Shown piece by piece: positions 157 through 52,720 of a stretch of 53,047 nucleotides of DNA. Location of the stretch: IMG/VR virus record IMGVR_UViG_3300021509_000001, positions 1-53,047 of that record. The stretch is one strand, 5' to 3'. Source of the DNA: a virus. Taxonomy: Duplodnaviria; Caudoviricetes. The notes beneath the pieces are model-generated. The model searched no databases, was not told where the DNA came from, and saw only the letters and a program-made list of their open reading frames with translations. A program made the translations under genes and the position numbers. The number at the start of each line of letters is the position of its first letter. Position 1 is the first letter of the stretch.

Positions 157-2609
157 ACAAGCGCAAGCTATGGCTTTACCCGGTCGAGGAGATGTGGGCC
201 TATCCGACTCCGATCGAGTATGATGTGCCGCCGGGAATACAGACTTTTCTCAAGGAAGTTGTCCTTCCCAGTCGGGAGAAACTCATAAAAGTTGAGCCGA
301 TTGAGAAGCTGCATCTCGAGGAGTTCAGGGCGGAGGGGATAGATGAGGATCTCAAACACCCCAAGGAGAGAAGACAGCAACTGATCGCTGATTTAAGATA
401 TTGCGGGAATTCGGCTTATCCACGACTGAAGGCCGGAAAGAAATGGGGAAATTGGACTCTTGACCTTGTCCTCCGTTACTTCGGAAAGATAGTTGATACG
501 TTGAGGACAAAAATCGACCCGTCTTACTTCCCTGAGCCGCCTCCAGGAGACCCGAAATGGAAAACCAGTTGGTGGCAATGCTATAAGGAAGCCAAAGAAA
601 AGGGCTACCTCAAGACGAAGCCTCAAGAGAAAGCCAGGCAAGCAGCCTTGGGCCTCGTCTACCGCGACGGCGAGATCCTCTTGATCAAGCGCAAGAACGA
701 GCCTCGCGTTTGGAGCCCGCCCGGTGGCTTCCTTTCTGGCCGCGATCCCGTAACTGCGGCTTTGGAGGAAGTCCAGGAGGAGACCGGCGTGCTGGCCGAT
801 CCCGTGATGGACGAGCCGTGGCGGGAGATCACTGTCGGAGGAGTGCGCTTGCATTTGGTTCCCATGCGCTGGATCGAGGGCGAGGGCGAGCCTTTGGCGG
901 AGGCCGACGAGGTTGGCTGGTTCGGGCTCGACGAGCTCCCGGAGCCGATCTCGCCTTCCCCCGAAGTCCTCCGCGCCGGCCAGGCCGTCGCGAAAGACGG
1001 GCTGGGCGAAGCGAAACTGAGGGAGGCGTTCGAGAAGCTCCCCGACGCCTTCGTTGTCGTTCCAGATTGGGCTTCCCTGACCGGGTCCGCGATTTACGGC
1101 AAGAACCGCAAGCCGCACGATATCGACATCGTCCTCCGGGCGGACGCGCCGTCCGGTTCGCTCCTCAAGCTGGAACGGGCCCTAAAAGAGGCGATAGGCG
1201 AAGGCTTGCCCGTGCAGTTCTCCCTCGAGCCCCAGGGTCCGACTTGGGCCTACTCGCCCCTTTACACCTTAGTTGCAGTGAAGAATCCGGAGTTCGAAAT
1301 CAGATCATTGCCGGAGCCTGGGTTTGCCGAGCGGTTTTACAAAGCGGCTGTGCAGGAGGACATTTCTCAGATCAAGCCGCTGGAGCCGGTAGCTCATTAC
1401 AAGGCGGCTGGAGAGTTCTACGGAGGAGAAGAGGAAGAACTTTGGGAGAAATGGGCCAGGCGGGCTGTCGAGCGTGGCGAAAAGATTTGTGTGCAGCCAA
1501 AAGCTGACGGTTTCAGGGTGCATCTTCATAAGAAAGGATCAGAGTTTGCAGTGTTCACCGAGAAGGGCCTCGAGCGCTCGGCCGTTTTCCCGGACTTCCC
1601 GAAGTTGATCGAAAAACTCCCTTGCCACGAATGCATCTTGGACGTGGAAGCGATGGCCTATAAAGATCCCGGATGGAAGCATCCCCAGAACCGGTGGGAG
1701 ATGGCCTGGATCGGGTCCGCGAAGGAACCGCATGACGAACCAGTCACGTTCTGGGCGCACGACATCCTGTGGCTCGACGGGAGGAACGTCTCCGGCCTCC
1801 CTTACCTCGAACGGCTGAAGCTCCTCCGAAAGCTGATCGGCGACGGCGTGACGGCGGGCAAGTTGCGGATCGTGGTCATGCCCACCAAGATCGCGACCGG
1901 CAAGCGAGGGCTCTTGGAGGCGCTCGAATGGGCCGATTCGCAGCGGCAATGCAACTCCGAAGGGGCGATGTGCAAGTTCCTGTCCTTCAAGTACGACACC
2001 GGGGTTCTGGGCGGAGTCGTGAAGTACAAGACGGTTCCGGAGCTGGACACGTTGGCCATCGGTTGGCGCAAGGTCCCGGCGGGCAAGCCTCCGCACGTGC
2101 ATTGGACCAGAGAGCAGGCTTTCAAGGAACTTCCCAAGTTGCTCGAGAAATCGAACACGTACATCTTCCGGTGCGCGCTCCGGAGCGAGGAAGACCCGAA
2201 CCTGTGGCTCCCGCTGGAAGGGGACCACGAGCTTTCGGAGTCCGACCTCAAGCTGGATTGGGACGAGGAGAAGCAAACGTGGAAGGGAACGGACGATCCC
2301 AAATACTGGACCATGCTCCCGGGCTGGCCGGAGCGCAAGGCTGGAGAGCTGGCGTACGGCAACACGTACGCCTGCAAGGTGGAGGACCCGTCCTGGCTCA
2401 AGAAGGGCCTGGTGATCACGGTCCGGCCCGCGGAACTCAGGCCGTTCAAAGGCGAAGACGGGAAGTGGCACATCTCTTGGCAGCATCCTCTGTCGCCGAA
2501 CCCCAAAGAACCCGGTTCGCCGGTCGGGAGCGTGGAAGCCGCCTTGCGCGCCTACAAGCTCGATCCGAAAGACTTCCAACCTTTGGCGTGGAGGAAGTGG
2601 AAGCTATGA
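6..2609 (+). CDS. Polyvalent protein: ASCH - unknown - NUDIX - minimal nucleotidyltransferase - ATP-dependent ligase (5' end lies across the junction at ~52795)
   Basis: Nudix box GGFLSGRDPVTAALEEVQEETG; nucleotidyltransferase motif TGS...HDIDIVL; ligase motifs QPKADGFR (Lys codon at 1500), ILDVE, FWAHDIL, EGAMCK, KYK; N-terminus resembles ASCH. Confidence 0.8.
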   Translation: MAGEWLAVLEDQRLVGVAKFKAPKPLTVEQFRKAYDLHRISEAERLAWWMDKRKLWLYPVEEMWAYPTPIEYDVPPGIQTFLKEVVLPSREKLIKVEPIEKLHLEEFRAEGIDEDLKHPKERRQQLIADLRYCGNSAYPRLKAGKKWGNWTLDLVLRYFGKIVDTLRTKIDPSYFPEPPPGDPKWKTSWWQCYKEAKEKGYLKTKPQEKARQAALGLVYRDGEILLIKRKNEPRVWSPPGGFLSGRDPVTAALEEVQEETGVLADPVMDEPWREITVGGVRLHLVPMRWIEGEGEPLAEADEVGWFGLDELPEPISPSPEVLRAGQAVAKDGLGEAKLREAFEKLPDAFVVVPDWASLTGSAIYGKNRKPHDIDIVLRADAPSGSLLKLERALKEAIGEGLPVQFSLEPQGPTWAYSPLYTLVAVKNPEFEIRSLPEPGFAERFYKAAVQEDISQIKPLEPVAHYKAAGEFYGGEEEELWEKWARRAVERGEKICVQPKADGFRVHLHKKGSEFAVFTEKGLERSAVFPDFPKLIEKLPCHECILDVEAMAYKDPGWKHPQNRWEMAWIGSAKEPHDEPVTFWAHDILWLDGRNVSGLPYLERLKLLRKLIGDGVTAGKLRIVVMPTKIATGKRGLLEALEWADSQRQCNSEGAMCKFLSFKYDTGVLGGVVKYKTVPELDTLAIGWRKVPAGKPPHVHWTREQAFKELPKLLEKSNTYIFRCALRSEEDPNLWLPLEGDHELSESDLKLDWDEEKQTWKGTDDPKYWTMLPGWPERKAGELAYGNTYACKVEDPSWLKKGLVITVRPAELRPFKGEDGKWHISWQHPLSPNPKEPGSPVGSVEAALRAYKLDPKDFQPLAWRKWKL

Positions 2610-4864
2610 TCGAAAAGCAAAAGGGACCTTCGATCGAGTATCCACCCAAGCCTAATGAGGTTAAGCGATTTATAGTACAATCTCATGCGAGGGGTCGGAG
2701 CAATCACTGGGACTTCCGCTTCGCGCTTAACGACGTCGCGGAAGGTTGGACCGTGAACGCGAACGTGGAAGGCACGATCGAGATCCCCATCGTGACCCTG
2801 GCGCAACTCAAAGCCCTCCACGAGGACCAAAGGGCGTGGAAGGTGGACCTCGAGACCGGCAAGATCCTGCCCCGCAAAGTGAGGACCACCATCCGGGGCA
2901 AGACCAGGATCGTGGTGCGTCCCGGCAACCTGTTCGCGACTCCCAAGGCGGCCGTGATCCCCAAGGAATGGATGGACGTCGAGGGGCGGACTCCCTTCCC
3001 TCCCGACTGGCCGAAGACGGTTCTGGAGTGGTGGGACAAATGGCCTAACTACGTCAGGGCCGAACTCCGAAAGGCGGGCTGGGATCCGGAACGGGCCCGG
3101 GCGATCCTGGACGGGAAGGAGAAATGGGAAGTCAAGGAGGTTCCGGTCGGGGCCACGCGTGCCTTTCCAGGAGTTTTCTACAAGTTCGAGGACGGTTTGT
3201 ACACGCCAGGCGCCCGTCGCCCGTGGTTCATGGAGTACCACATCGAGCAAAGCAGGTTCTTCCAAGGCAGGCTGTGTTTCCGCCTCGTGACGCGCGAAAA
3301 GGCCGAGAAATCCACGGCTTGGCAGGAGCTCGTGGCTTCCCGGTTCTTCATCGTGGACGGGCCAGGCGGGGCCAAGATCGTGAAGCAGGTCTTGCCGCCG
3401 GCCGAAGCGGAGGAGGAAGCCAAGCTTCCCGGTTTTTGGATGTTCCAGACTCCCGATCCTCTTGGAGAGATACATCCTTACGTCCTTTCGGAGGAAGCGA
3501 TCGAAAAGAAATGGCTGCCTCCGAGGCCTGCGTCGGCCTTGCCGCAGAAGTTCCAGAAGGAAGCCCCGAAGGAACTGAGGTTCTGGACGATCGAGGACAA
3601 GGAAAAGGCCCTCGAGGCCAGGGAAAAGCTGGCGGAGTTCTTTGAGTCGGGAGCCAAAAAGTCCTTCCCGGTCGTGAAGTTGCGAAAAGGAGAGTTCAAA
3701 CTTGTCGCCCAGCACTGGCGGGGTCCGGTCATCATCAGGTGGGGCCCGAGCGCTTCGCTTTACCATCTCCTGATCAAGGTCGGCTCCGATCGCTGGCTCA
3801 TCGGCTTGGATAACGATCCCCGGATAAGGGAGGCGGTGGCCGGTTTCTCGGAGGACATGGACCTATGGCGGGAGCTCTGGGAGACGAAGGAGCGCCGGGA
3901 CGTGGAACCCGGGACCGACCTCAACCCCACGAAGAACACGCCTTCCTGGATCGAGCTGGCCGACGAGGGATTGGTCGAGATCATGGAGCAAGAGGCGGGC
4001 TTTCTCAAGCTCAAGCTCGGGGGAAAGAAACTCGAGGGCCTTTGGGTCCTGACTGAAGAAGAACCCGGGGCCGGGATCTGGGCCTTCACGAAGGAGGAAG
4101 TCGCGCCCCTCGCCAAGGCCCTGAGGGCCGTCCTTCAACTCCACTCCTGGGAAGGCGGGAAGGAATACGACCTGCGGCTCGAGCGCCCCGAGGGCTGGAT
4201 CTGGGAGTTCCACTTTAAGGAAGATCCGCGCGAGGTCGAGGACCAACTCGCTCCCGGTAACAAGTGCTACGACCTGACTTGGCTCGAGATAAAGGAGCCG
4301 GAGAAGCGGAAAGTGCAGGGAGTCTGGACCCGAGTCGAGCCGCTGGAGTCCGGCTCTGTCGTTTGGGAAGAATTCGTGCCGGATTCGATCAGGTTCGCCC
4401 TGACCGGGATGGGAGCCCTGTCTGGCACTTGGACCGCCTCCCTGCGGGAAGGCGGCTGGCTAATCGAAAAGCTCGTGGAGAAAAGCCTGCCCGTCGAGAT
4501 CATAAGGAAGGACGCCAAGAAGCGGGTCGTGACCGGCATCGTGCTCGAACCGGGCACGAAGGATGCGCAGGGGGACATCATACCGGCGGAGGAGATCGAG
4601 AAGGCTGCATGGGATTTTTTGGCCAAGTGGAGATATACAGGACTGCACCATGAGGGCGAGCCCGATCCGCGCTTGCAGGTGGTGGAGAGCTGGATCGCCC
4701 CGGTCGAATTCAGTTTTCCCGAAAACAAGAAATTCGTGGTAAAGAAAGGGACGTGGCTCCTTTCGGTGAGGTGTCCGCCCGACGTTTGGGAGAAAGTCGA
4801 GAAAGGCGAGCTGAGGGGTTTCTCGATCCAGGGGATGGGCAAGCGAAAGCGGCTGGGTCGGTAG
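2606..4864 (+). CDS. LigD-type 3'-phosphoesterase-like domains fused to a C-terminal XkdF-like prohead serine protease
   Basis: ATGA overlap with the upstream gene; FIVQSH-x5-HWDFRF motif and two degenerate copies; C-terminal VTGIVLEP..DAQGD..HH..VESWIAP..KGTW..GELRGFSIQG. Confidence 0.8.
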   Translation: MIEKQKGPSIEYPPKPNEVKRFIVQSHARGRSNHWDFRFALNDVAEGWTVNANVEGTIEIPIVTLAQLKALHEDQRAWKVDLETGKILPRKVRTTIRGKTRIVVRPGNLFATPKAAVIPKEWMDVEGRTPFPPDWPKTVLEWWDKWPNYVRAELRKAGWDPERARAILDGKEKWEVKEVPVGATRAFPGVFYKFEDGLYTPGARRPWFMEYHIEQSRFFQGRLCFRLVTREKAEKSTAWQELVASRFFIVDGPGGAKIVKQVLPPAEAEEEAKLPGFWMFQTPDPLGEIHPYVLSEEAIEKKWLPPRPASALPQKFQKEAPKELRFWTIEDKEKALEAREKLAEFFESGAKKSFPVVKLRKGEFKLVAQHWRGPVIIRWGPSASLYHLLIKVGSDRWLIGLDNDPRIREAVAGFSEDMDLWRELWETKERRDVEPGTDLNPTKNTPSWIELADEGLVEIMEQEAGFLKLKLGGKKLEGLWVLTEEEPGAGIWAFTKEEVAPLAKALRAVLQLHSWEGGKEYDLRLERPEGWIWEFHFKEDPREVEDQLAPGNKCYDLTWLEIKEPEKRKVQGVWTRVEPLESGSVVWEEFVPDSIRFALTGMGALSGTWTASLREGGWLIEKLVEKSLPVEIIRKDAKKRVVTGIVLEPGTKDAQGDIIPAEEIEKAAWDFLAKWRYTGLHHEGEPDPRLQVVESWIAPVEFSFPENKKFVVKKGTWLLSVRCPPDVWEKVEKGELRGFSIQGMGKRKRLGR

Positions 4865-47491: not shown

Positions 47492-47674
47492 ATGACGGAC
47501 GAGATATGGCCGTTCGGTGAAGGAAATGAATTCGAGGAGAACCTGGGCAAGTTCGCCCGCCTGCTTCGCTGTCTCTTCGACGCCCTAAAGGACGCGGGCT
47601 TCACTGAGCAGCAGGCGTTCGAGCTGATCAAAGACTTCCTGAAAAGTTCGCTGGCGGCGGCGAAAGGTGCGTGA
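47492..47674 (+). CDS. Small hypothetical protein
   Basis: AAGGAGG RBS; L.DAGFTEQQAFELI. Confidence 0.7.
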   Translation: MTDEIWPFGEGNEFEENLGKFARLLRCLFDALKDAGFTEQQAFELIKDFLKSSLAAAKGA

Positions 47675-48951
47675 TGGCGGAGAAGAAGGAGCCCGATTTC
47701 AAGACGCTCGGAGTTCCGGGCCTGTCGATCTGGTCCGGCGTCTTGCGCGAGGAGTGGCTTTCCGAGCTCCAAGGGAAGAAGGGCCGGAAAGTCTGGCGCG
47801 AGATGCGGGACAACGACTCGACCGTCGGCTCCATCCTCTTCGCCATTTCCCACATCCTCAGGGGCGCCCAGTGGTCCGTCGAGCCGGGCGGGGACTCCAG
47901 GGCGGACAGGGAGGCGGCCGATTTCCTCGAGCAATGCATGCACGACATGGAAACGCCCTGGACCGAGTTCGTTTCCGAGGTCCAAAGTTTTCTTGTCTAC
48001 GGGTTCTCGGTGTTCGAGATCTTGTGGAAAGTCAGGGAAGGTCCGGACGCCCCTCCGTCGGGCCGTTCCAAGTACAGCGATAAGCGCCTAGCTTGGCGGG
48101 ACTTTTCGATCCGGGCCCAGGAGACGATCGTCAGGTGGGACATGGACTCCTCGGGAAACCTCAAGGGACTGTGGCAAGTGGCTCCGCCCGACTATAGGGA
48201 GCGTTACATCCCGGCAGACAAGTTCCTTTTGTTCAGAACTGAAGCGCATAAAGGGTCGCCCGAGGGCCGCTCGGTCCTCCGCAACGCGTACCTCAGTTGG
48301 TACTTCAAAAAGAATTTGCAGATTTTGGAAGGGATCGGGGCGGAGAGGGATCTCGCCGGATTGCCTGTCCTGTACGTGCCTTACGATTATTTGACTGACG
48401 ATGAAAAAGAGAAAGACAGGGCATGGCTAGAGGATTTAGTGAAGAATATCCGCCAGGACGAGGAAGCTGGCCTGCTCCTCCCGATGGACCCGTACGCCGA
48501 AGGCGGGCCCCGGGAGCTCATGCGCCTGGAGCTGATCTCTTCGGCCGGAAGTAAGCAGTTCGACACGTCGGAGATCATCCAGCGGTACGACCACGCCATA
48601 GCGCAGACCGTCTTGGCGGACTTCGTTTTGCTGGGCCTGGAGAGCAAGGGCTCCTACGCCCTGGCCCGGGAGAAGCGCACGGTGTTTGAGACCGCGCTCA
48701 TAGCCTGGCTCGATTCCATCGCGGACGCGATCAACGCCAAGGCGGTACGTCAGTTGTTTGAATTCAACGACTTCGGCATCGACAATCCGCCCAAGCTGGT
48801 GGCCCGCTTGCCGCGCGTGCCGGACCTCGACGAGGTGACGAAGTTGATCGACGCCTTGGCGAGGGCGGGCGCGGAGCTGTTCCCCGACGAGGACCTGGAA
48901 AACGCCTTGAGGGCCCAAGTCGGGCTCCCGGCGAAGAAGACGGAGGCGTGA
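47674..48951 (+). CDS. Portal protein (DUF935/Mu gp29-like)
   Basis: EEWL.ELQG, YGFS.FE, PEGRSVLRNAY..WYFK, G.ERDLAGLP, GSYAL. Confidence 0.92.
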   Translation: MAEKKEPDFKTLGVPGLSIWSGVLREEWLSELQGKKGRKVWREMRDNDSTVGSILFAISHILRGAQWSVEPGGDSRADREAADFLEQCMHDMETPWTEFVSEVQSFLVYGFSVFEILWKVREGPDAPPSGRSKYSDKRLAWRDFSIRAQETIVRWDMDSSGNLKGLWQVAPPDYRERYIPADKFLLFRTEAHKGSPEGRSVLRNAYLSWYFKKNLQILEGIGAERDLAGLPVLYVPYDYLTDDEKEKDRAWLEDLVKNIRQDEEAGLLLPMDPYAEGGPRELMRLELISSAGSKQFDTSEIIQRYDHAIAQTVLADFVLLGLESKGSYALAREKRTVFETALIAWLDSIADAINAKAVRQLFEFNDFGIDNPPKLVARLPRVPDLDEVTKLIDALARAGAELFPDEDLENALRAQVGLPAKKTEA

Positions 48952-48952
48952 G

Positions 48953-51010
48953 ATGGCCCTCCGCTCTAGCCTCCTTTCCTCCGAGACGACCTCTTTAGGA
49001 GCGGAGGGCCTTTCCAAAGCGAGAGGCAGGAAGGTTTCGGTCGAGGAAGCCCGCGAAGCCTTCGTCGACGCCTTCGAGAAAATCCGGCACAAGGTCAAGA
49101 GCGAGGACATCAGGGAAGCTTTGGAAGAAGAGAAGCCGAACAAATTCATCAAGAAACTCGAGAAAGCGGGCATCGTGACCGCGGCCCTGCTCGGGGCTTG
49201 GAAGGTCTTCGATCCTCATTTCCTCTATCACGCCAACCGGGAGGTGGTCTACTGGGACTGGGACCGACGTTTGGTCCCCGGCGATTCTTGGGTCAGGGCT
49301 TGGCTAAAGAAGTACGGACTGAAAAGGGTCAAAGACTTATCGGCGGAGACGATCGAGGCCGTCAAGGTCGCCCTGGGCGAAGCGTTGGAGCGAGGCGAGA
49401 ACCCGCTCGTGGCGGCCCGGCGCATCAGGTCGATGATCGGGCCGAACTTCCGCCAGATGGGAGCCATCGAGCGGTACTACTCCAGATTGTTGGATCAAGG
49501 AGTCGCTCAGAGGAAGGCGAGGGAACTGACGCAGAAACTGGCGGATAGGTACGTCAAGCAGCGGGCCGAGACGATCGCGAGGACGGAACTGATCGCGGCC
49601 GAGAACCACGGGCGGCTGGAAGCTTGGGATCGGGCGGTGGACGCGAAGTTAATCGGAAAGGAATCCGAGAAGGAATGGGTAACGGCGTTCGATGAAAGAA
49701 CCTGTCTTCCCGGGTTTGTGATAGTCGAAACTCCCTCAGGACAGCGTCCTGTAGCGAGAGTGCGTCCGGGAGACTATGTGTTGACTCCCTTAGGTTTCCG
49801 GAAAGTTGTCGGAAAGAGTGCTCGATACAAAAAAGAACCTCTTATACGCATTCGAACGGCGTCTCGCGAGTTGGTTTGTACTCAAGACCATCTTGTTTTC
49901 ACAAACAGAGGATGGTTAGAAGCCCGGCAGGTGAGCAAAGGAGACATGCTTTTCCAGAAGCTCCATGATGATGAGGGGAAGGGCGTTATCAAAAGTGTTG
50001 ATGGTGCTTTCAGAGATTCTAATGACCTTCCAGCCGTGCTTTTCAAGAAATCGATCTTTGCGGGCGTCCCTCGCGGGATCTTTGTGCCAGTAGTCTCCGT
50101 CGACTTCGATCGCGATTTTGTGGCTCGGAATCGCGAAGTCAATCGAATACCGGCCGCACGAGGCCTCTTGGACGTAATTAAGTTTAAGTTTGGAAAGAGC
50201 TTGCCTGACTTTTCTTTCTATGGACGTTTCTCCTCGGAATTTTCGATAGCAGGAGAAGGAACAGAATTGGCGGGTTCCAAGTTCACTTGGGCAAACGCGG
50301 AAGCGTTTCCCGCACGTTTTGCACGTGGCGTAGTGAGGGGGGCGTCTGCATTCTTCCGAGCAATACTTTCGGTCTGGTCTGTTGGCTCGAAACACCTTTC
50401 CACAGCGGGCGCATTTCTTGTAAACGGTATTGGCAAGCCGGCATTCGCGACTGCAAACTGTGTACCGATCCGCTTCGGAAAGTCTGACCGTGAATTCCTT
50501 GCCGCATACCGGGCAGATCTTGGTAACTTTTGGAGTAGAACGAAGGTAGCATTCCCGAGAGCAAAACTTCTGCGAATCGCGACGGGGAAGAAATTCCTTG
50601 CCACAATAAGCGCAACGACGAGGCTTCCGTTTGCGTGTCGAAATATGGTAACAAGTCCGCGAACAGAATTTTTGCGTTGGGTAAGCGGGGCGGAAAGACT
50701 TCCCACACACGGGGCAAGTGCGAAGCGTTTCCATTTCCTGAGAAGCTTTGCTTGCACGACTGTTCTTGACCATTGCGCCATATTTTATCATAAGTGGGTC
50801 TGCACTCGCAAGGTTTTTGACTTGACGGTCGAAGGAGTCCATTGTTTCTATGCCAACGGGATTTTGGTCCACAATTGTGATATTTGCGCCCTCGAGGACG
50901 GCGTGCGGGTGAAGTTGGACGAGCCTTTTCCGGACGTTGGGGTCATGGCCCCGCCTGCTCATCCTCGCTGTAGGTGCAGCATGAACCTAATCCCTGCTCC
51001 CGCCCGATGA
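48953..51010 (+). CDS. MuF (phage minor head) protein interrupted by an intein
   Basis: RAETIARTE, KEWVTA.DERT|CDIC, PPAHPRCRC; spliced product ~294 aa. Confidence 0.92.
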   Translation: MALRSSLLSSETTSLGAEGLSKARGRKVSVEEAREAFVDAFEKIRHKVKSEDIREALEEEKPNKFIKKLEKAGIVTAALLGAWKVFDPHFLYHANREVVYWDWDRRLVPGDSWVRAWLKKYGLKRVKDLSAETIEAVKVALGEALERGENPLVAARRIRSMIGPNFRQMGAIERYYSRLLDQGVAQRKARELTQKLADRYVKQRAETIARTELIAAENHGRLEAWDRAVDAKLIGKESEKEWVTAFDERTCLPGFVIVETPSGQRPVARVRPGDYVLTPLGFRKVVGKSARYKKEPLIRIRTASRELVCTQDHLVFTNRGWLEARQVSKGDMLFQKLHDDEGKGVIKSVDGAFRDSNDLPAVLFKKSIFAGVPRGIFVPVVSVDFDRDFVARNREVNRIPAARGLLDVIKFKFGKSLPDFSFYGRFSSEFSIAGEGTELAGSKFTWANAEAFPARFARGVVRGASAFFRAILSVWSVGSKHLSTAGAFLVNGIGKPAFATANCVPIRFGKSDREFLAAYRADLGNFWSRTKVAFPRAKLLRIATGKKFLATISATTRLPFACRNMVTSPRTEFLRWVSGAERLPTHGASAKRFHFLRSFACTTVLDHCAIFYHKWVCTRKVFDLTVEGVHCFYANGILVHNCDICALEDGVRVKLDEPFPDVGVMAPPAHPRCRCSMNLIPAPAR
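49916..50773 (-). CDS. Zinc-finger-repeat DUF559/Vsr-like endonuclease encoded antisense inside the intein
   Basis: Five CxxCGK.F...CS..C repeats; TSIE..V...L, YSIDFA, IAIEVDGDYWH, D..KD..L...GWKVIRI.E. Confidence 0.88.
   Translation of the reverse strand: MVKNSRASKASQEMETLRTCPVCGKSFRPAYPTQKFCSRTCYHISTRKRKPRRCAYCGKEFLPRRDSQKFCSRECYLRSTPKVTKICPVCGKEFTVRLSEADRYTVCSRECRLANTVYKKCARCGKVFRANRPDRKYCSEECRRPPHYATCKTCGKRFRVCPSELGTRQFCSFSCYRKFRGETSIERKVRQALSKLKLNYVQEASCGRYSIDFAIPSHKIAIEVDGDYWHKDPARDARKDRFLEKHGWKVIRISESTINTFDNALPLIIMELLEKHVSFAHLPGF
50782..50811 (-). promoter_or_regulatory. Antisense promoter inside the intein for the endonuclease gene
   Basis: TTGCGA-18-TAAAAT with extended TGn; ATG 8 nt downstream. 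Confidence 0.65.
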
Positions 51011-51015
51011 GGGAC

Positions 51016-51044
51016 TTGACAACCGGGGTGCTCCGTCGTATAAT
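51016..51044 (+). promoter_or_regulatory. Consensus sigma70 promoter for Y-like RNA/Ro60
   Basis: TTGACA-17-TATAAT. Confidence 0.88.
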
Positions 51045-51049
51045 TTAGT

Positions 51050-51118
51050 TGTCGGGCCGGAGGCCCTGCGTTACCTCGGCTCTTGAAGGCTACTCGCAGG
51101 GCCAAATTTCGCCCGGCA
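51050..51118 (+). ncRNA. Y-RNA-like element (Ro60-binding stem) in the leader of the Ro60 gene
   Basis: GUCGGGC[C]GGA pairs with UUC-GCCCGGC; 3' bulge AAAU; upper stem GGCCCUGCG/CGCAGGGCC; begins at the predicted TSS. Confidence 0.7.
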
Positions 51119-51142
51119 CTTACGAAAGGAGGCAGAAGAATC

Positions 51143-52720
51143 ATGTACGAACGGCACTATCAAACCAGACGGACTCCCCAGAAGGAGAAGATCCCAGGCA
51201 CCACCCAGGTCCAAAATAACGCGGGGGGCTTTGCCTGGGCGGTTGACGATTGGGCTCGGCTGGACCGTTTCCTGGTTTTAGGATCCGAAGGCGGAACCTA
51301 TTATGTCCGGGAGCGCGAGCTCACGATCCAGAACGCGGAGGCGGTCCACCGGTGCATTCTGGCAGATGGACCTCGCGTAGTGAACCGAATCGTCGAGATT
51401 TCCGATTCCGGTCGGGCACCTAAGAACGACCCCGCTCTCTTCGCTTTGGCGATGGCCGCGTCCCTGGGTTCTCCGGAGACGAAAGCTGTGGCCTTAGAAG
51501 CCTTGCCCAAGGTTGCCCGGACCGGAACTCATCTTTTCCATTTCCTCCGCTATGTTGAAGCTTTCCGCGGTTGGGGCCGCAGCCTTCGCCGCGCCATCCA
51601 GAACTGGTACCTCTCGAAAGACGTTTCCCAGCTCGCCTACCAAGTTGTCAAGTACCAAGCTCGCGACGGTTGGTCTCACAGGGACGCTCTTCGTCTTGCG
51701 CATCCGAAGCCCGATTCTTCCGAGCGGGATGCCCTGTTCCGCTGGATTGTCAAGGGGGAGCCCGTTCCCAAAGTCGAGTCTCTGGCCCTGGTCGACGCGT
51801 TCGAGCGGGCCAAGCGGGCTTCTACGGCGAAGGAGATCTGCTCTCTCATCGCCGACTACGGGTTGCCGCGGGAAGCGATTCCGACGAAATGGCTCAAGGA
51901 GCCCAAGGTGTGGGAAGCGCTTTTGCCCCAGATGCCGATGACCGCCTTGCTGCGAAATCTCGGGAACTTGTCCAAGTACGGCGTGCTGACTCCGCTTTCC
52001 GAGGCGAGCAAGTTCGTGGTCTCTCGCTTCTCTGATGAGGCAGCCATCTGCAAGGCTCGGTTGCATCCGCTTTCCATTTTGCTCGCGCTTGTCACTTATG
52101 CTTCCGGCGGAGGATACCGAGGAAGCGGGACTTGGGAGCCAGTCTCCGAAGTTGTCGACGCGTTGGACCGCGCTTTCTATCTGGCGTTCCAAAATGTAGA
52201 GCCGACCGGCAAGCGCCTCGTTTTGGCTTTGGACGTGTCTGGTTCGATGTGGGAGACTTATATCGCAGGGTCGCTCCTTACGGCGGGGCAAGGTGCCGCG
52301 GCCATGGCGCTCGTGACTGCCGCGACCGAGCCTCAGTGCGAGATCGTCGCCTTCTCGCACGAGATGGTGCCTCTTGCCATTTCCCCGAGGGAGCGCCTCG
52401 ATGACGTTGTGAAGAAGCTGGACATGCCGTTCGGGGCGACCGACTGCGCCTTGCCCATGTTGTGGGCCTTGGAGAAAGGCGTGCAAGCGGATGCTTTCGT
52501 GATCTATACCGACTCCGAGACTTGGTATGGGAACGTGCATCCGGTCCAGGCATTACGGGAATATCGGCAAAAGACTGGGATCCCCGCGAAACTGATCGTG
52601 GTAGGGATGTGCTCCAACGGGTTCTCCATCGCGGATCCTGACGATCCGGGCATGTTGGACGTGGTTGGGTTTGACGCTGTGGTGCCAGCGGTCATAGCCG
52701 ATTTCATCCGCGACGGGTAA
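51143..52720 (+). CDS. rsr: Ro60 / TROVE-vWA RNA-binding protein
   Basis: QVQNNAGGF.W..DDW.RL.RFL.LGSEGGTYY, KYQ.R.GWSHRD.LRL.H, MPMTALLRNL, vWA LDVSGSM, TDC.LPM, TDSETW, MLDVVGFD. Confidence 0.95.
   Translation: MYERHYQTRRTPQKEKIPGTTQVQNNAGGFAWAVDDWARLDRFLVLGSEGGTYYVRERELTIQNAEAVHRCILADGPRVVNRIVEISDSGRAPKNDPALFALAMAASLGSPETKAVALEALPKVARTGTHLFHFLRYVEAFRGWGRSLRRAIQNWYLSKDVSQLAYQVVKYQARDGWSHRDALRLAHPKPDSSERDALFRWIVKGEPVPKVESLALVDAFERAKRASTAKEICSLIADYGLPREAIPTKWLKEPKVWEALLPQMPMTALLRNLGNLSKYGVLTPLSEASKFVVSRFSDEAAICKARLHPLSILLALVTYASGGGYRGSGTWEPVSEVVDALDRAFYLAFQNVEPTGKRLVLALDVSGSMWETYIAGSLLTAGQGAAAMALVTAATEPQCEIVAFSHEMVPLAISPRERLDDVVKKLDMPFGATDCALPMLWALEKGVQADAFVIYTDSETWYGNVHPVQALREYRQKTGIPAKLIVVGMCSNGFSIADPDDPGMLDVVGFDAVVPAVIADFIRDG

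What the first reader, a model, noticed from the sequence alone, without database searches (positions are those of the whole stretch)
49703..50875. Intein whose endonuclease is a separate gene on the opposite strand, with its own internal promoter
Seen: the MuF intein has intact Hint ends (CLPG...TQDH...VFDLTV...VHN/C), but its ~280-aa middle has no recognisable domain. The reverse strand of that middle (50773-49916) encodes a clean 285-aa protein with five C4 zinc-finger repeats and a DUF559/Vsr-like nuclease. A TTGCGA-18-TAAAAT promoter with extended TGn lies just inside the intein C-terminal block. The two frames are codon-aligned and both are stop-free over ~860 nt. Known: intein homing endonucleases are normally in-frame domains of the intein polypeptide. 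Inference: this is a dual-coding mobile element in which the sense strand is a spliced-out spacer and the nuclease is expressed independently of the late MuF gene. The nuclease gene must avoid TTA/CTA/TCA codons to keep the host frame open. Antisense transcription could also regulate MuF.
Basis: partly seen in the sequence, partly recalled or inferred. Interest (0 to 1): 0.92.

Follow-up and report, generated by a model that had tools for sequence, protein, structure and literature searches.

The report
Intein with antisense homing-endonuclease gene
A phage head-assembly gene carries a self-splicing protein insert whose middle encodes, on the opposite DNA strand, a separate DNA-cutting enzyme with its own promoter; the layout is real and kept by selection, but was already described in 2025.

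Summary
The MuF gene (48953-51010, +) holds a class-1 intein (49703-50875). Its Hint ends fold with confidence. The 266 residues between them have no fold or domain. The opposite, codon-aligned frame (50773-49916) encodes five zinc fingers plus a nuclease domain related to homing endonuclease I-Bth0305I and to Vsr.

Nuclease-based scans gave 47 clusters (48 after inspecting L189) in which the sense frame is open through the nuclease gene, at GC 0.31-0.69. Two clusters carry 9 sense stops each and look like split inteins. In free-standing relatives, 10 of 13 clusters have such stops (Fisher p=1.6e-7). Codon-position variability shows selection on the nuclease frame in the middle and on the sense frame at the Hint ends. 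An extended -10 promoter sits at a fixed place on the antisense strand in most lineages. In the window the ATG lies 8 nt downstream, so the mRNA is probably leaderless. Intein-less alleles occur in other metagenomes.

The novelty was overstated. Gosselin, Arsenault and Gogarten (bioRxiv 2025) reported antisense VSR-like endonucleases in full phage inteins, and antisense LAGLIDADG cases date from 1998. This is a new member, with new quantitative support.

The parts
48953..51010 (+). MuF-like minor head (head morphogenesis) gene, read through the intein (685 aa precursor)
   Evidence: PF04233 at 41.7 bits; PHROG head morphogenesis at 3.8e-22. The portal gene lies upstream.
49703..50875 (+). Class-1 intein (391 aa): Cys1, block B TQDH, block G ...VHN, +1 Cys at 50876
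   Evidence: Natural intein-less alleles join 49706 to 50885 in other metagenomes.
49703..50002 (+). Hint N-terminal subdomain (intein residues 1-100)
   Evidence: AF2 pLDDT is 78-94. In the sense frame the third codon position varies most, 0.475/0.433/0.680.
50006..50803 (+). Sense-strand spacer (intein residues 102-367): translated, but with no fold or domain
   Evidence: AF2 pLDDT is below 50 throughout. There is no Pfam match. Sense amino-acid identity among homologues is 24%, against 43% for the opposite frame.
50804..50875 (+). Hint C-terminal strands (blocks F and G)
   Evidence: AF2 pLDDT is 88-93. Sense-frame position variability is 0.381/0.354/0.608.
49916..50773 (-). Homing-endonuclease gene (285 aa plus stop), codon-aligned with the intein frame. 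An alternative start is the ATG at 50734 (METLRTC...)
   Evidence: There are no TTA, CTA or TCA codons.
50249..50716 (-). Five CxxC...CxxxC zinc-finger units (presumed DNA recognition)
   Evidence: Cysteine columns are invariant or nearly so in 12 homologues. The AF2 model is confident.
49970..50230 (-). Vsr-like / I-Bth0305I-like catalytic domain (E-x-D-G-x-x-W-H)
   Evidence: DUF559 covers residues 182-268. The profile hits 3r3p at 1.4e-16. Foldseek gives 3r3p TMt 0.79. The motif is kept in 49 of 49 representatives.
50782..50811 (-). Promoter-like site: -35 TTGCGA (50811-50806), 18-nt spacer, TG (50790-50789), -10 TAAAAT (50787-50782). The ATG lies 8 nt downstream, which suggests a leaderless mRNA
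   Evidence: for the window. The position is conserved in homologues.
49916..50002 (.). True double-coding overlap: the nuclease C-terminal tail and stop lie opposite Hint residues 72-100
50876..51010 (+). C-extein with the MuF CxxC...PAHPRCRC motif

Best explanation
This is a mobile intein at a conserved site of a phage MuF (minor head) gene, D-E-R-T | C-x-x-C. Its homing endonuclease is not a domain of the intein polypeptide. It is a separate gene on the opposite strand, placed where inteins normally carry their endonuclease domain.

Shown here: the late MuF reading frame runs through about 266 codons that encode no fold. These codons are the codon-aligned reverse complement of the nuclease gene. 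The nuclease gene contains no TTA, CTA or TCA, so the sense frame has no stops.

Inferred: the Hint ends splice the spacer out of the precursor and restore MuF. The nuclease has five zinc fingers plus a Vsr-like catalytic domain related to I-Bth0305I. It is transcribed from its own extended -10 promoter, which is embedded in the intein's C-terminal coding part. In this window the mRNA is probably leaderless. Nuclease expression would therefore be independent of late-gene expression. The nuclease would cut intein-less MuF alleles of co-infecting relatives, and repair would copy the whole element in.

The element most likely arose when a free-standing endonuclease gene of the kind found next to MuF genes invaded a mini-intein. 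Only copies that keep both frames open persist as contiguous inteins. Other copies become split inteins or lose the nuclease.
For: - **The nuclease gene is real.** Pfam matches DUF559 and MTES_1575. The profile hits I-Bth0305I (3r3p) at 1.4e-16. The AF2 model has pLDDT 86, and Foldseek gives 3r3p TMt 0.79 and also finds Vsr. E-x-D-G-x-x-W-H is kept in 49 of 49 cluster representatives.
- **The sense middle is a spacer.** AF2 pLDDT is below 50 for residues 102-367, while the Hint ends score 78-94.
- **Selection switches strand.** In the middle, variability by codon position of the nuclease frame is 0.455/0.411/0.650, and amino-acid identity is 43% for the nuclease against 24% for the sense frame. 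At the Hint ends the sense third position varies most.
- **Both frames are kept open.** Of 97 loci in 72 clusters, 47 clusters are contiguous with 0 sense stops, including GC 0.31-0.35 lineages where 10.8-19 stops are expected (P 1e-7 to 4e-15). Two split clusters have 9 stops each, against 10.4 and 10.9 expected. Ten of 13 free-standing clusters have 1-9 stops. Fisher p=1.6e-7.
- **The promoter is conserved.** Among 49 representatives, 32 have a >=5/6 -10 hexamer with TGn as the best antisense site. The sense strand gives 0 of 49 and shuffles give 0-5. TATAAT is exact in 22, and the site lies 94-105 nt from the intein end in 34. About ten lineages, the window included, have an ATG 6-8 nt after the -10. 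At least 14 have a leader with a Shine-Dalgarno sequence.
- **There are signs of mobility.** Intein-less alleles (DERT|CPLC) were seen in contigs of runs X3 and X4. P0009 is 99%/95% identical to P0004 but lacks 226 residues of the middle. The intein GC is 0.50 against 0.60 in the flanks.
Against: - For the window alone, absence of TTA/CTA/TCA is only marginal against the phage's codon usage (2.83 expected, P=0.053).
- Three of 13 free-standing clusters also have none.
- No RNA data exist for this stretch.
- The window's promoter is a 9-of-12 match with an 18-nt spacer.
- Fifteen of 49 representatives lack TGn, and 7 of 49 have no -10-like hexamer in the conserved zone.
- The window's nuclease has a 13-residue N-terminal extension that homologues lack, so the start codon (50773 or 50734) is uncertain.
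- Splicing with a 266-residue unstructured insert, nuclease activity and the nuclease's target are all untested.
- L058 and L069 show that an open sense frame is not indispensable.
- The metagenome scan kept the best 80 of 117 loci, so 37 were not examined.
Confidence: 0.85

Rival explanations
1. The nuclease and the intein are two independent selfish elements. On this reading the nuclease behaves like a free-standing phage endonuclease that happens to sit inside the intein. It cuts somewhere else in competitor genomes, or at a site near but not at the intein insertion point, so the intein does not home as a unit.
For: Free-standing relatives exist. L001, L003 and L109/L129 lie antisense directly 3' of intein-less MuF genes. 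Thirteen free-standing clusters were found. The nuclease has its own promoter.
Against: In 47-48 clusters the nuclease sits at the same place in the same intein at the same MuF site. This fits co-transmission as one unit. Intein presence and absence are exact at the intein borders.
Confidence: 0.1
2. In this window the element is a relic. The intein still splices but the nuclease is silent or inactive, so both open frames are inherited and not currently selected.
For: The window's -10 and -35 hexamers are weaker than in many homologues, and its N-terminus is atypical. The window-only stop statistic is marginal.
Against: All invariant nuclease residues are present. The ORF is intact. A 99% identical copy occurs in a second sample (L113). 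Intein-less alleles coexist with it, which is the situation in which homing is still selected.
Confidence: 0.04
3. The open sense frame is a chance by-product of GC-rich DNA, and the gene is functionally broken or split.
For: Codon-aligned antisense frames are often open in GC-rich DNA. With the phage's own codon usage P=0.053.
Against: The intein is only 50% GC. The sense frame is open in all 47 contiguous clusters, including GC 0.31-0.35. The exteins on both sides are in the same frame and carry the MuF motifs.
Confidence: 0.01

Closest known systems
Inteins with anti-sense VSR-like homing endonucleases in actinobacteriophages (Gosselin, Arsenault, Gogarten, bioRxiv 10.1101/2025.01.02.630785). 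I read the abstract, section 15 and passages of sections 3, 8, 12, 14 and 28; the supplements are closed.
   Same: A full (not split) intein. The endonuclease ORF lies on the antisense strand between the splicing blocks. The sense middle has no recognisable structure. The nuclease core is Vsr-like and is linked by HHpred to 3R3P. A long N-terminal extension has no structural match. The authors propose an origin by invasion of an intein by a free-standing endonuclease gene.
   Different: This family comes from uncultivated viruses. The window is held mainly by hydrothermal-vent and sediment metagenome runs. The family has no full-length relative among 50,697 isolated phage records: 0 of 9 matching records cover 80% or more of the intein, and nuclease relatives there are at most about 28% identical over most of the query (up to 38% over shorter stretches). 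The two I inspected (H11, H18) are free-standing. The preprint text I searched does not mention a promoter (0 occurrences), and the passages and sections I read give no statistics on stop avoidance. Whether any of its VSR-like cases lies in a minor capsid gene is in supplements I could not see.
Anti-sense LAGLIDADG inteins. The citations to Gorbalenya 1998 and Gogarten 2002 are taken from the preprint and I did not read them. An example is the minor capsid gene of Gordonia phage Barsten.
   Same: A MuF-type host gene, an antisense ORF inside the intein, and a codon-aligned frame.
   Different: The insertion site differs (HEVIN|CRC, against DERT|CxxC here). The nuclease family differs too; the Barsten ORF gave no Pfam match, and its LAGLIDADG label comes from the preprint.
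Fractured genes: split inteins with a free-standing Vsr-like endonuclease gene between the halves (Dassa et al. 2009, PMC2677866). I saw only the search listing and the start of the abstract; the further content is recalled.
   Same: The same nuclease family, a phage setting, and an endonuclease gene that brings its own control elements. L058 and L069 of this family fit that layout.
   Different: In the window the host frame is continuous and the nuclease is antisense.
I-Bth0305I, an intron-encoded homing endonuclease of Bacillus phage 0305phi8-36 (PDB 3R3P; Taylor et al. 2011, PMC3239194, seen as search listing only)
   Same: The catalytic domain matches (profile E=1.4e-16; TMt 0.79).
   Different: It is carried in a group I intron in recA. 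Here the N-terminal DNA-binding part consists of five zinc fingers.

Membership tests
Class-1 intein (Hint domain) | N-terminal Cys/Ser, block B TxxH, C-terminal HN, and a +1 Cys/Ser/Thr | tested here: met
   C251, TQDH, VHN641 and C642 of P0001. PF14890 scores 36.3 bits against a cut-off of 35.8.
Class-1 intein (Hint domain) | Hint fold formed by the N- and C-terminal parts | tested here: met
   In the AF2 model residues 1-100 and 368-391 are beta-rich with pLDDT 78-94. I did not run a fold search on this model.
Class-1 intein (Hint domain) | An insert that is exactly absent from intein-less alleles | tested here: met
   Contigs of X3 (1 contig) and X4 (2 contigs) join 49706 to 50885 with CTCTC between, which gives DERT|CPLC.
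Class-1 intein (Hint domain) | Protein splicing activity | not testable with these tools
   This needs expression of the precursor.
Vsr-like / I-Bth0305I ('EDxHD') homing endonucleases | Catalytic domain homologous to I-Bth0305I and Vsr | tested here: met
   3r3p at 1.4e-16. Foldseek finds 3r3p at 1.9e-6 with TMt 0.79, and 1cw0 at 7.6e-4. Pfam matches DUF559 and Vsr.
Vsr-like / I-Bth0305I ('EDxHD') homing endonucleases | Conserved acidic and His catalytic residues | tested here: inconclusive
   E-x-D-G-x-x-W-H is kept in 49 of 49 representatives. In the aligned 3r3p stretch I-Bth0305I reads E-V-N-G-V-Y-W-A. The mapping onto the motif name 'EDxHD', which I recall, was not established.
Vsr-like / I-Bth0305I ('EDxHD') homing endonucleases | Cleaves the element-less allele near the insertion site | not testable with these tools
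   This needs a cleavage assay.
Intein with antisense homing-endonuclease ORF (Gosselin et al. 2025) | An intact endonuclease ORF on the opposite strand between the splicing blocks of an uninterrupted intein | tested here: met
Fractured gene / split intein with free-standing endonuclease (Dassa et al. 2009) | The host gene is broken into two ORFs at the intein | tested here: not met
   The window's sense frame has no stop from 48953 to 51010. The feature is met in the relatives L058 and L069, with 9 stops each.
Phage MuF / SPP1 gp7 minor head protein | PF04233 domain, in a position after the portal gene | tested here: met
   PF04233 scores 41.7 bits against a cut-off of 29.6. A Mu-type portal lies at 47671-48951. 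Fourteen of 32 homologous N-exteins hit PF04233 on their own.

The most novel reading that the evidence does not exclude
The endonuclease travels as a complete antisense expression cassette. Its extended -10 promoter is written into the intein's own coding sequence and forces the sense codons (L/F)-Y-H. The mRNA is leaderless or carries a Shine-Dalgarno sequence. The host polymerase could then make the nuclease early, uncoupled from and convergent with late MuF transcription. This family has about 48 lineages from GC 0.31 to 0.69, all at one MuF site. It would then be a large natural set of roughly 800-nt antisense overlaps in which one strand is selected only for 'no stop'. Contiguous, split, nuclease-deleted, empty and free-standing states all coexist in it.
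Probability: 0.55. Interest if true: 0.62.

Novelty: new member of a known kind. Interest (0 to 1): 0.5.

Why it matters
It shows that a reader without tools can recover a real and rare gene layout. It also adds numbers to a kind that has so far only been catalogued.

- Selection demonstrably keeps about 270 codons open on a strand that encodes nothing foldable.
- The constraint switches strand at the Hint borders.
- The nuclease brings a conserved promoter that lies inside coding sequence.

For annotation, such MuF genes will be miscalled as truncated genes or as a 'hypothetical protein' on the wrong strand. For intein evolution, the family displays in one place the stages proposed by Dassa et al. 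and by Gosselin et al.: a free-standing nuclease next to the target gene, an antisense insert in an intein, a split intein, a mini-intein and an empty site. For tool builders, it is a natural intein that tolerates a 266-residue unstructured insert, paired with a zinc-finger-guided nuclease.

Tried and rejected
- **RNA evidence.** The look-up of sequencing runs listed no RNA holder, so transcription could not be examined. This is no evidence either way.
- **Rfam.** A scan of the whole window at gathering threshold found nothing.
- **Pfam on the Barsten antisense ORF.** No match, so I did not verify its LAGLIDADG label.
- **Block G pattern.** My first pattern was too narrow and misfiled 14 contiguous loci as 'N end only'. 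Reading their translations and using a wider pattern corrected this. L189 still needed inspection by eye. L171 stays undecided, because its sequence departs after VYDLQ near the contig end.
- **Start-codon classes.** The rule 'first in-frame ATG/GTG/TTG after the -10' picks spurious TTG or GTG codons in some loci (for example L049 and L127), so the leader classes are approximate.
- **Codon usage.** The flank codon usage used all open stretches of 200 aa or more on both strands, so it is rough. For the window I redid it on ten chosen ORFs.
- **Free-standing loci.** Loci are called free-standing from the lack of an N-Hint HMM hit and of block G. Only L001, L003 and L109 were read by eye.
- **Antisense regulation of MuF.** No data bear on it.
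Full report
**What is in the window.** The window is a 53-kb record of an uncultivated virus. A Mu-type portal gene lies at 47671-48951. It is followed by a 685-aa ORF at 48953-51010 that matches Phage_Mu_F (41.7 bits) and Intein_splicing (36.3 bits, cut-off 35.8). PHROG head-morphogenesis families match only residues 29-251 and 640-680. The piece between them starts with Cys (49703), contains TQDH, ends with FYANGILVHN (to 50875) and is followed by Cys. That is a class-1 intein of 391 residues. Its GC is about 0.50 against about 0.60 in the flanks. On the minus strand the codon-aligned frame is open from 50986 to 49919. The ORF 50773-49916 (285 aa) has five CxxC...CxxxC units and matches DUF559 (7.5e-12), MTES_1575 (3e-12) and Vsr (8e-5). 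It also matches PHROGs annotated as HNH or homing endonuclease.

**Both products, judged on their own.** I built a profile of 12 homologous nucleases. It hits the catalytic domain of the homing endonuclease I-Bth0305I (3r3p) at 1.4e-16. The AlphaFold model of the nuclease has mean pLDDT 86. Foldseek ranks 3r3p first (TMt 0.79) and also finds Vsr (1cw0, 1vsr). I modelled the sense intein with 10 homologues. It is confident only for residues 1-100 and 368-391 (pLDDT 78-94, beta strands). Residues 102-367 stay below 50. So the Hint fold is encoded on the + strand at the two ends, the nuclease on the - strand in the middle. The two overlap in earnest only over about 29 codons (49916-50002).

**Relatives.**
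- A protein search with the sense intein found four MuF proteins that align over all 391 residues at 27-32% identity. It also found P0009, which is 99%/95% identical to P0004 but lacks 226 residues of the middle. P0009 is therefore a nuclease-deleted mini-intein.
- Scanning viral contigs with the sense alignment gave 67 loci. Of the 31 I examined, 15 have a codon-aligned antisense ORF that matches the window's nuclease at 1e-44 to 1e-85.
- Nuclease-based scans do not depend on the state of the sense frame. They gave 4 loci in genome contigs and 80 in metagenomes, the best 80 of 117.
- After clustering at 90% amino-acid identity there are 72 clusters from 97 loci.
- In 47 clusters the nuclease is flanked by both Hint ends in one frame, with no sense stop. 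L189 joins them after inspection.
- All sit at the same MuF site, D-x-R-V/T | C-x-x-C.
- Fourteen of 32 N-exteins hit PF04233 on their own, and no other phage structural family appears.

**Is the open sense frame selected?**
- In the codon-aligned frame, sense stops correspond to TTA, CTA and TCA in the nuclease gene. The window has none.
- With the phage's own codon usage 2.83 are expected, so P=0.053.
- The comparative picture is decisive. Lineages with GC 0.31-0.35 also have none, although 10.8-19 are expected (P from 1e-7 to 4e-15).
- The same model is validated by the two lineages that do carry sense stops. L058 and L069 have 9 each, against 10.4 and 10.9 expected.
- Among free-standing relatives with enough flank, 10 of 13 clusters have 1-9 such codons and 3 have none.
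- Comparing 47 open and 2 stopped clusters with 3 open and 10 stopped gives Fisher p=1.6e-7.

**Which strand is read by selection?**
- In a codon alignment of the nuclease genes, pairwise differences are 0.455, 0.411 and 0.650 at nuclease codon positions 1, 2 and 3.
- The same columns give 43% identity in the nuclease frame and 24% in the sense frame.
- In the Hint N and C parts the sense third position varies most: 0.475/0.433/0.680 and 0.381/0.354/0.608.
- The constraint therefore changes strand at the borders of the insert. The sense middle is constrained mainly by 'no stop'.
- E-x-D-G-x-x-W-H is kept in 49 of 49 representatives. This argues that the nucleases are active.

**The split relatives.** L058 and L069 are 85% identical in DNA to each other. 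Both keep the two exteins and both Hint ends in frame and have an intact nuclease, but each has 9 sense stops. A conserved Met lies 56 codons before the intein end. I read them as split inteins with an antisense nuclease between the halves. Restart at that Met is an inference.

**The promoter.**
- The window's TTGCGA-18-TAAAAT with TG (50811-50782, minus strand) is a 9-of-12 match.
- In 49 cluster representatives, the best promoter-like site on the antisense strand has a >=5/6 -10 hexamer with TGn in 32. The sense strand of the same stretch gives 0, and 20 shuffles give 0-5.
- The hexamer is exactly TATAAT in 22. It ends 94-105 nt from the intein end in 34.
- It overlaps the sense codons for (L/F)-Y-H. 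GC-rich lineages use TTA and TAT there. That stretch lies outside the confident Hint model and is absent from the mini-intein P0009. A DNA-level constraint is therefore the better explanation.
- Downstream there are two layouts. In one, a leader of about 29-36 nt carries AGGAG-like sequences; 14 of the 18 leaders longer than 20 nt have one. In the other, an ATG follows 6-8 nt after the -10, in about ten lineages including the window at 8 nt. The second layout points to a leaderless mRNA starting at the ATG of 50773.
- A second ATG at 50734 aligns better with the homologues' N-termini. The start codon is therefore not settled.

**Mobility.** Contigs of other metagenomes were laid on 48900-51100. 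One contig in run X3 and two in X4 join 49706 to 50885 with CTCTC between. That is an allele reading DERT|CPLC, without the 1173-nt intein. In X4 this form has depth 34.9, against 5.1 for the intein-containing contig. Loose ends in X2, X4 and X5 read the same junction. These are contigs laid at 85% likeness with 36-54 letters on the shorter side. They show related phages without the intein, not the same genome. Free-standing relatives of the nuclease also lie antisense directly after intein-less MuF genes in L001, L003 and L109/L129.

**What is already known.**
- A full-text search led to Gosselin, Arsenault and Gogarten (bioRxiv 2025). I read its abstract, section 15 and passages of other sections.
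- They report 63 non-canonical inteins among 784 in actinobacteriophages. These include 'anti-sense VSR-like' endonucleases in full inteins, with an unstructured sense middle and an HHpred link to 3R3P. They propose an origin from free-standing endonuclease genes.
- They cite antisense LAGLIDADG inteins from 1998 and 2002.
- Dassa et al. 2009 described split inteins with free-standing Vsr-like nucleases. I saw only the listing and the start of the abstract.
- The kind is therefore known.
- This family is not in the isolated-phage collection. None of 9 matching records covers 80% or more of the intein, and nuclease relatives there are at most about 28% identical over most of the query (up to 38% over shorter stretches). 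The two inspected (H11, H18) are free-standing.
- The word 'promoter' does not occur in the preprint's main text.

**Verdict.** The element is a new member of a recently described kind. The new contributions here are the selection statistics, the strand switch of constraint, the conserved internal promoter with a probably leaderless message, the split derivative and the natural empty allele. Splicing, transcription and cleavage remain to be shown.

Noticed in passing
window 51016-52720: Directly after MuF lies a 545-aa Ro60-like gene (TROVE 2.8e-46, vWA_Ro60 1.6e-68). It is preceded by a perfect TTGACA-17-TATAAT at 51016-51044. No Y-RNA-like or other Rfam family was found in the window at gathering threshold.
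   Followed up: partly
L183 and L189 (metagenome loci): These MuF genes carry two inteins. One is the antisense-nuclease intein at the CxxC site. The second sits at the HPN|CRC motif about 25-75 residues downstream.
   Followed up: partly
L195 (Gordonia phage Barsten, NC_055856.1) 1095-4214: The minor capsid gene has an intein at the HEVIN|CRC site with a 206-aa antisense ORF (2088-2708). That ORF is also codon-aligned with the sense frame. It gave no Pfam match. The 2025 preprint describes such minor-capsid inteins as antisense LAGLIDADG.
   Followed up: partly
L077 2531-3718 (minus strand of the sense orientation): In this relative the nuclease has an extra Cys/His-rich C-terminal extension of about 130 aa. 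Its ORF runs to within 30 nt of the intein start, opposite almost the whole Hint N-subdomain.
   Followed up: no
L001, L003, L109, L129: Free-standing relatives of the nuclease (31-49% identical) lie on the opposite strand directly 3' of intein-less MuF genes. In L001 the codon-aligned opposite frame is nevertheless open for 337 codons.
   Followed up: partly
L120: The C-extein after the intein stops after 18 residues, without the H..CRC motif. The gene may be interrupted again or frameshifted.
   Followed up: no
L193 (Mycobacterium phage KilKor, NC_053209.1) 1501-2247: A distant nuclease homologue lies unannotated on the opposite strand between gp54 and the DNA methyltransferase gp53. In sister phages the same place is annotated as hypothetical protein or endonuclease.
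   Followed up: no
window 49916-50773 (-): Twelve of the nuclease's 15 Leu codons are CTT, and there is no TTG. The phage's other genes use TTG, CTC and CTG most.
   Followed up: no
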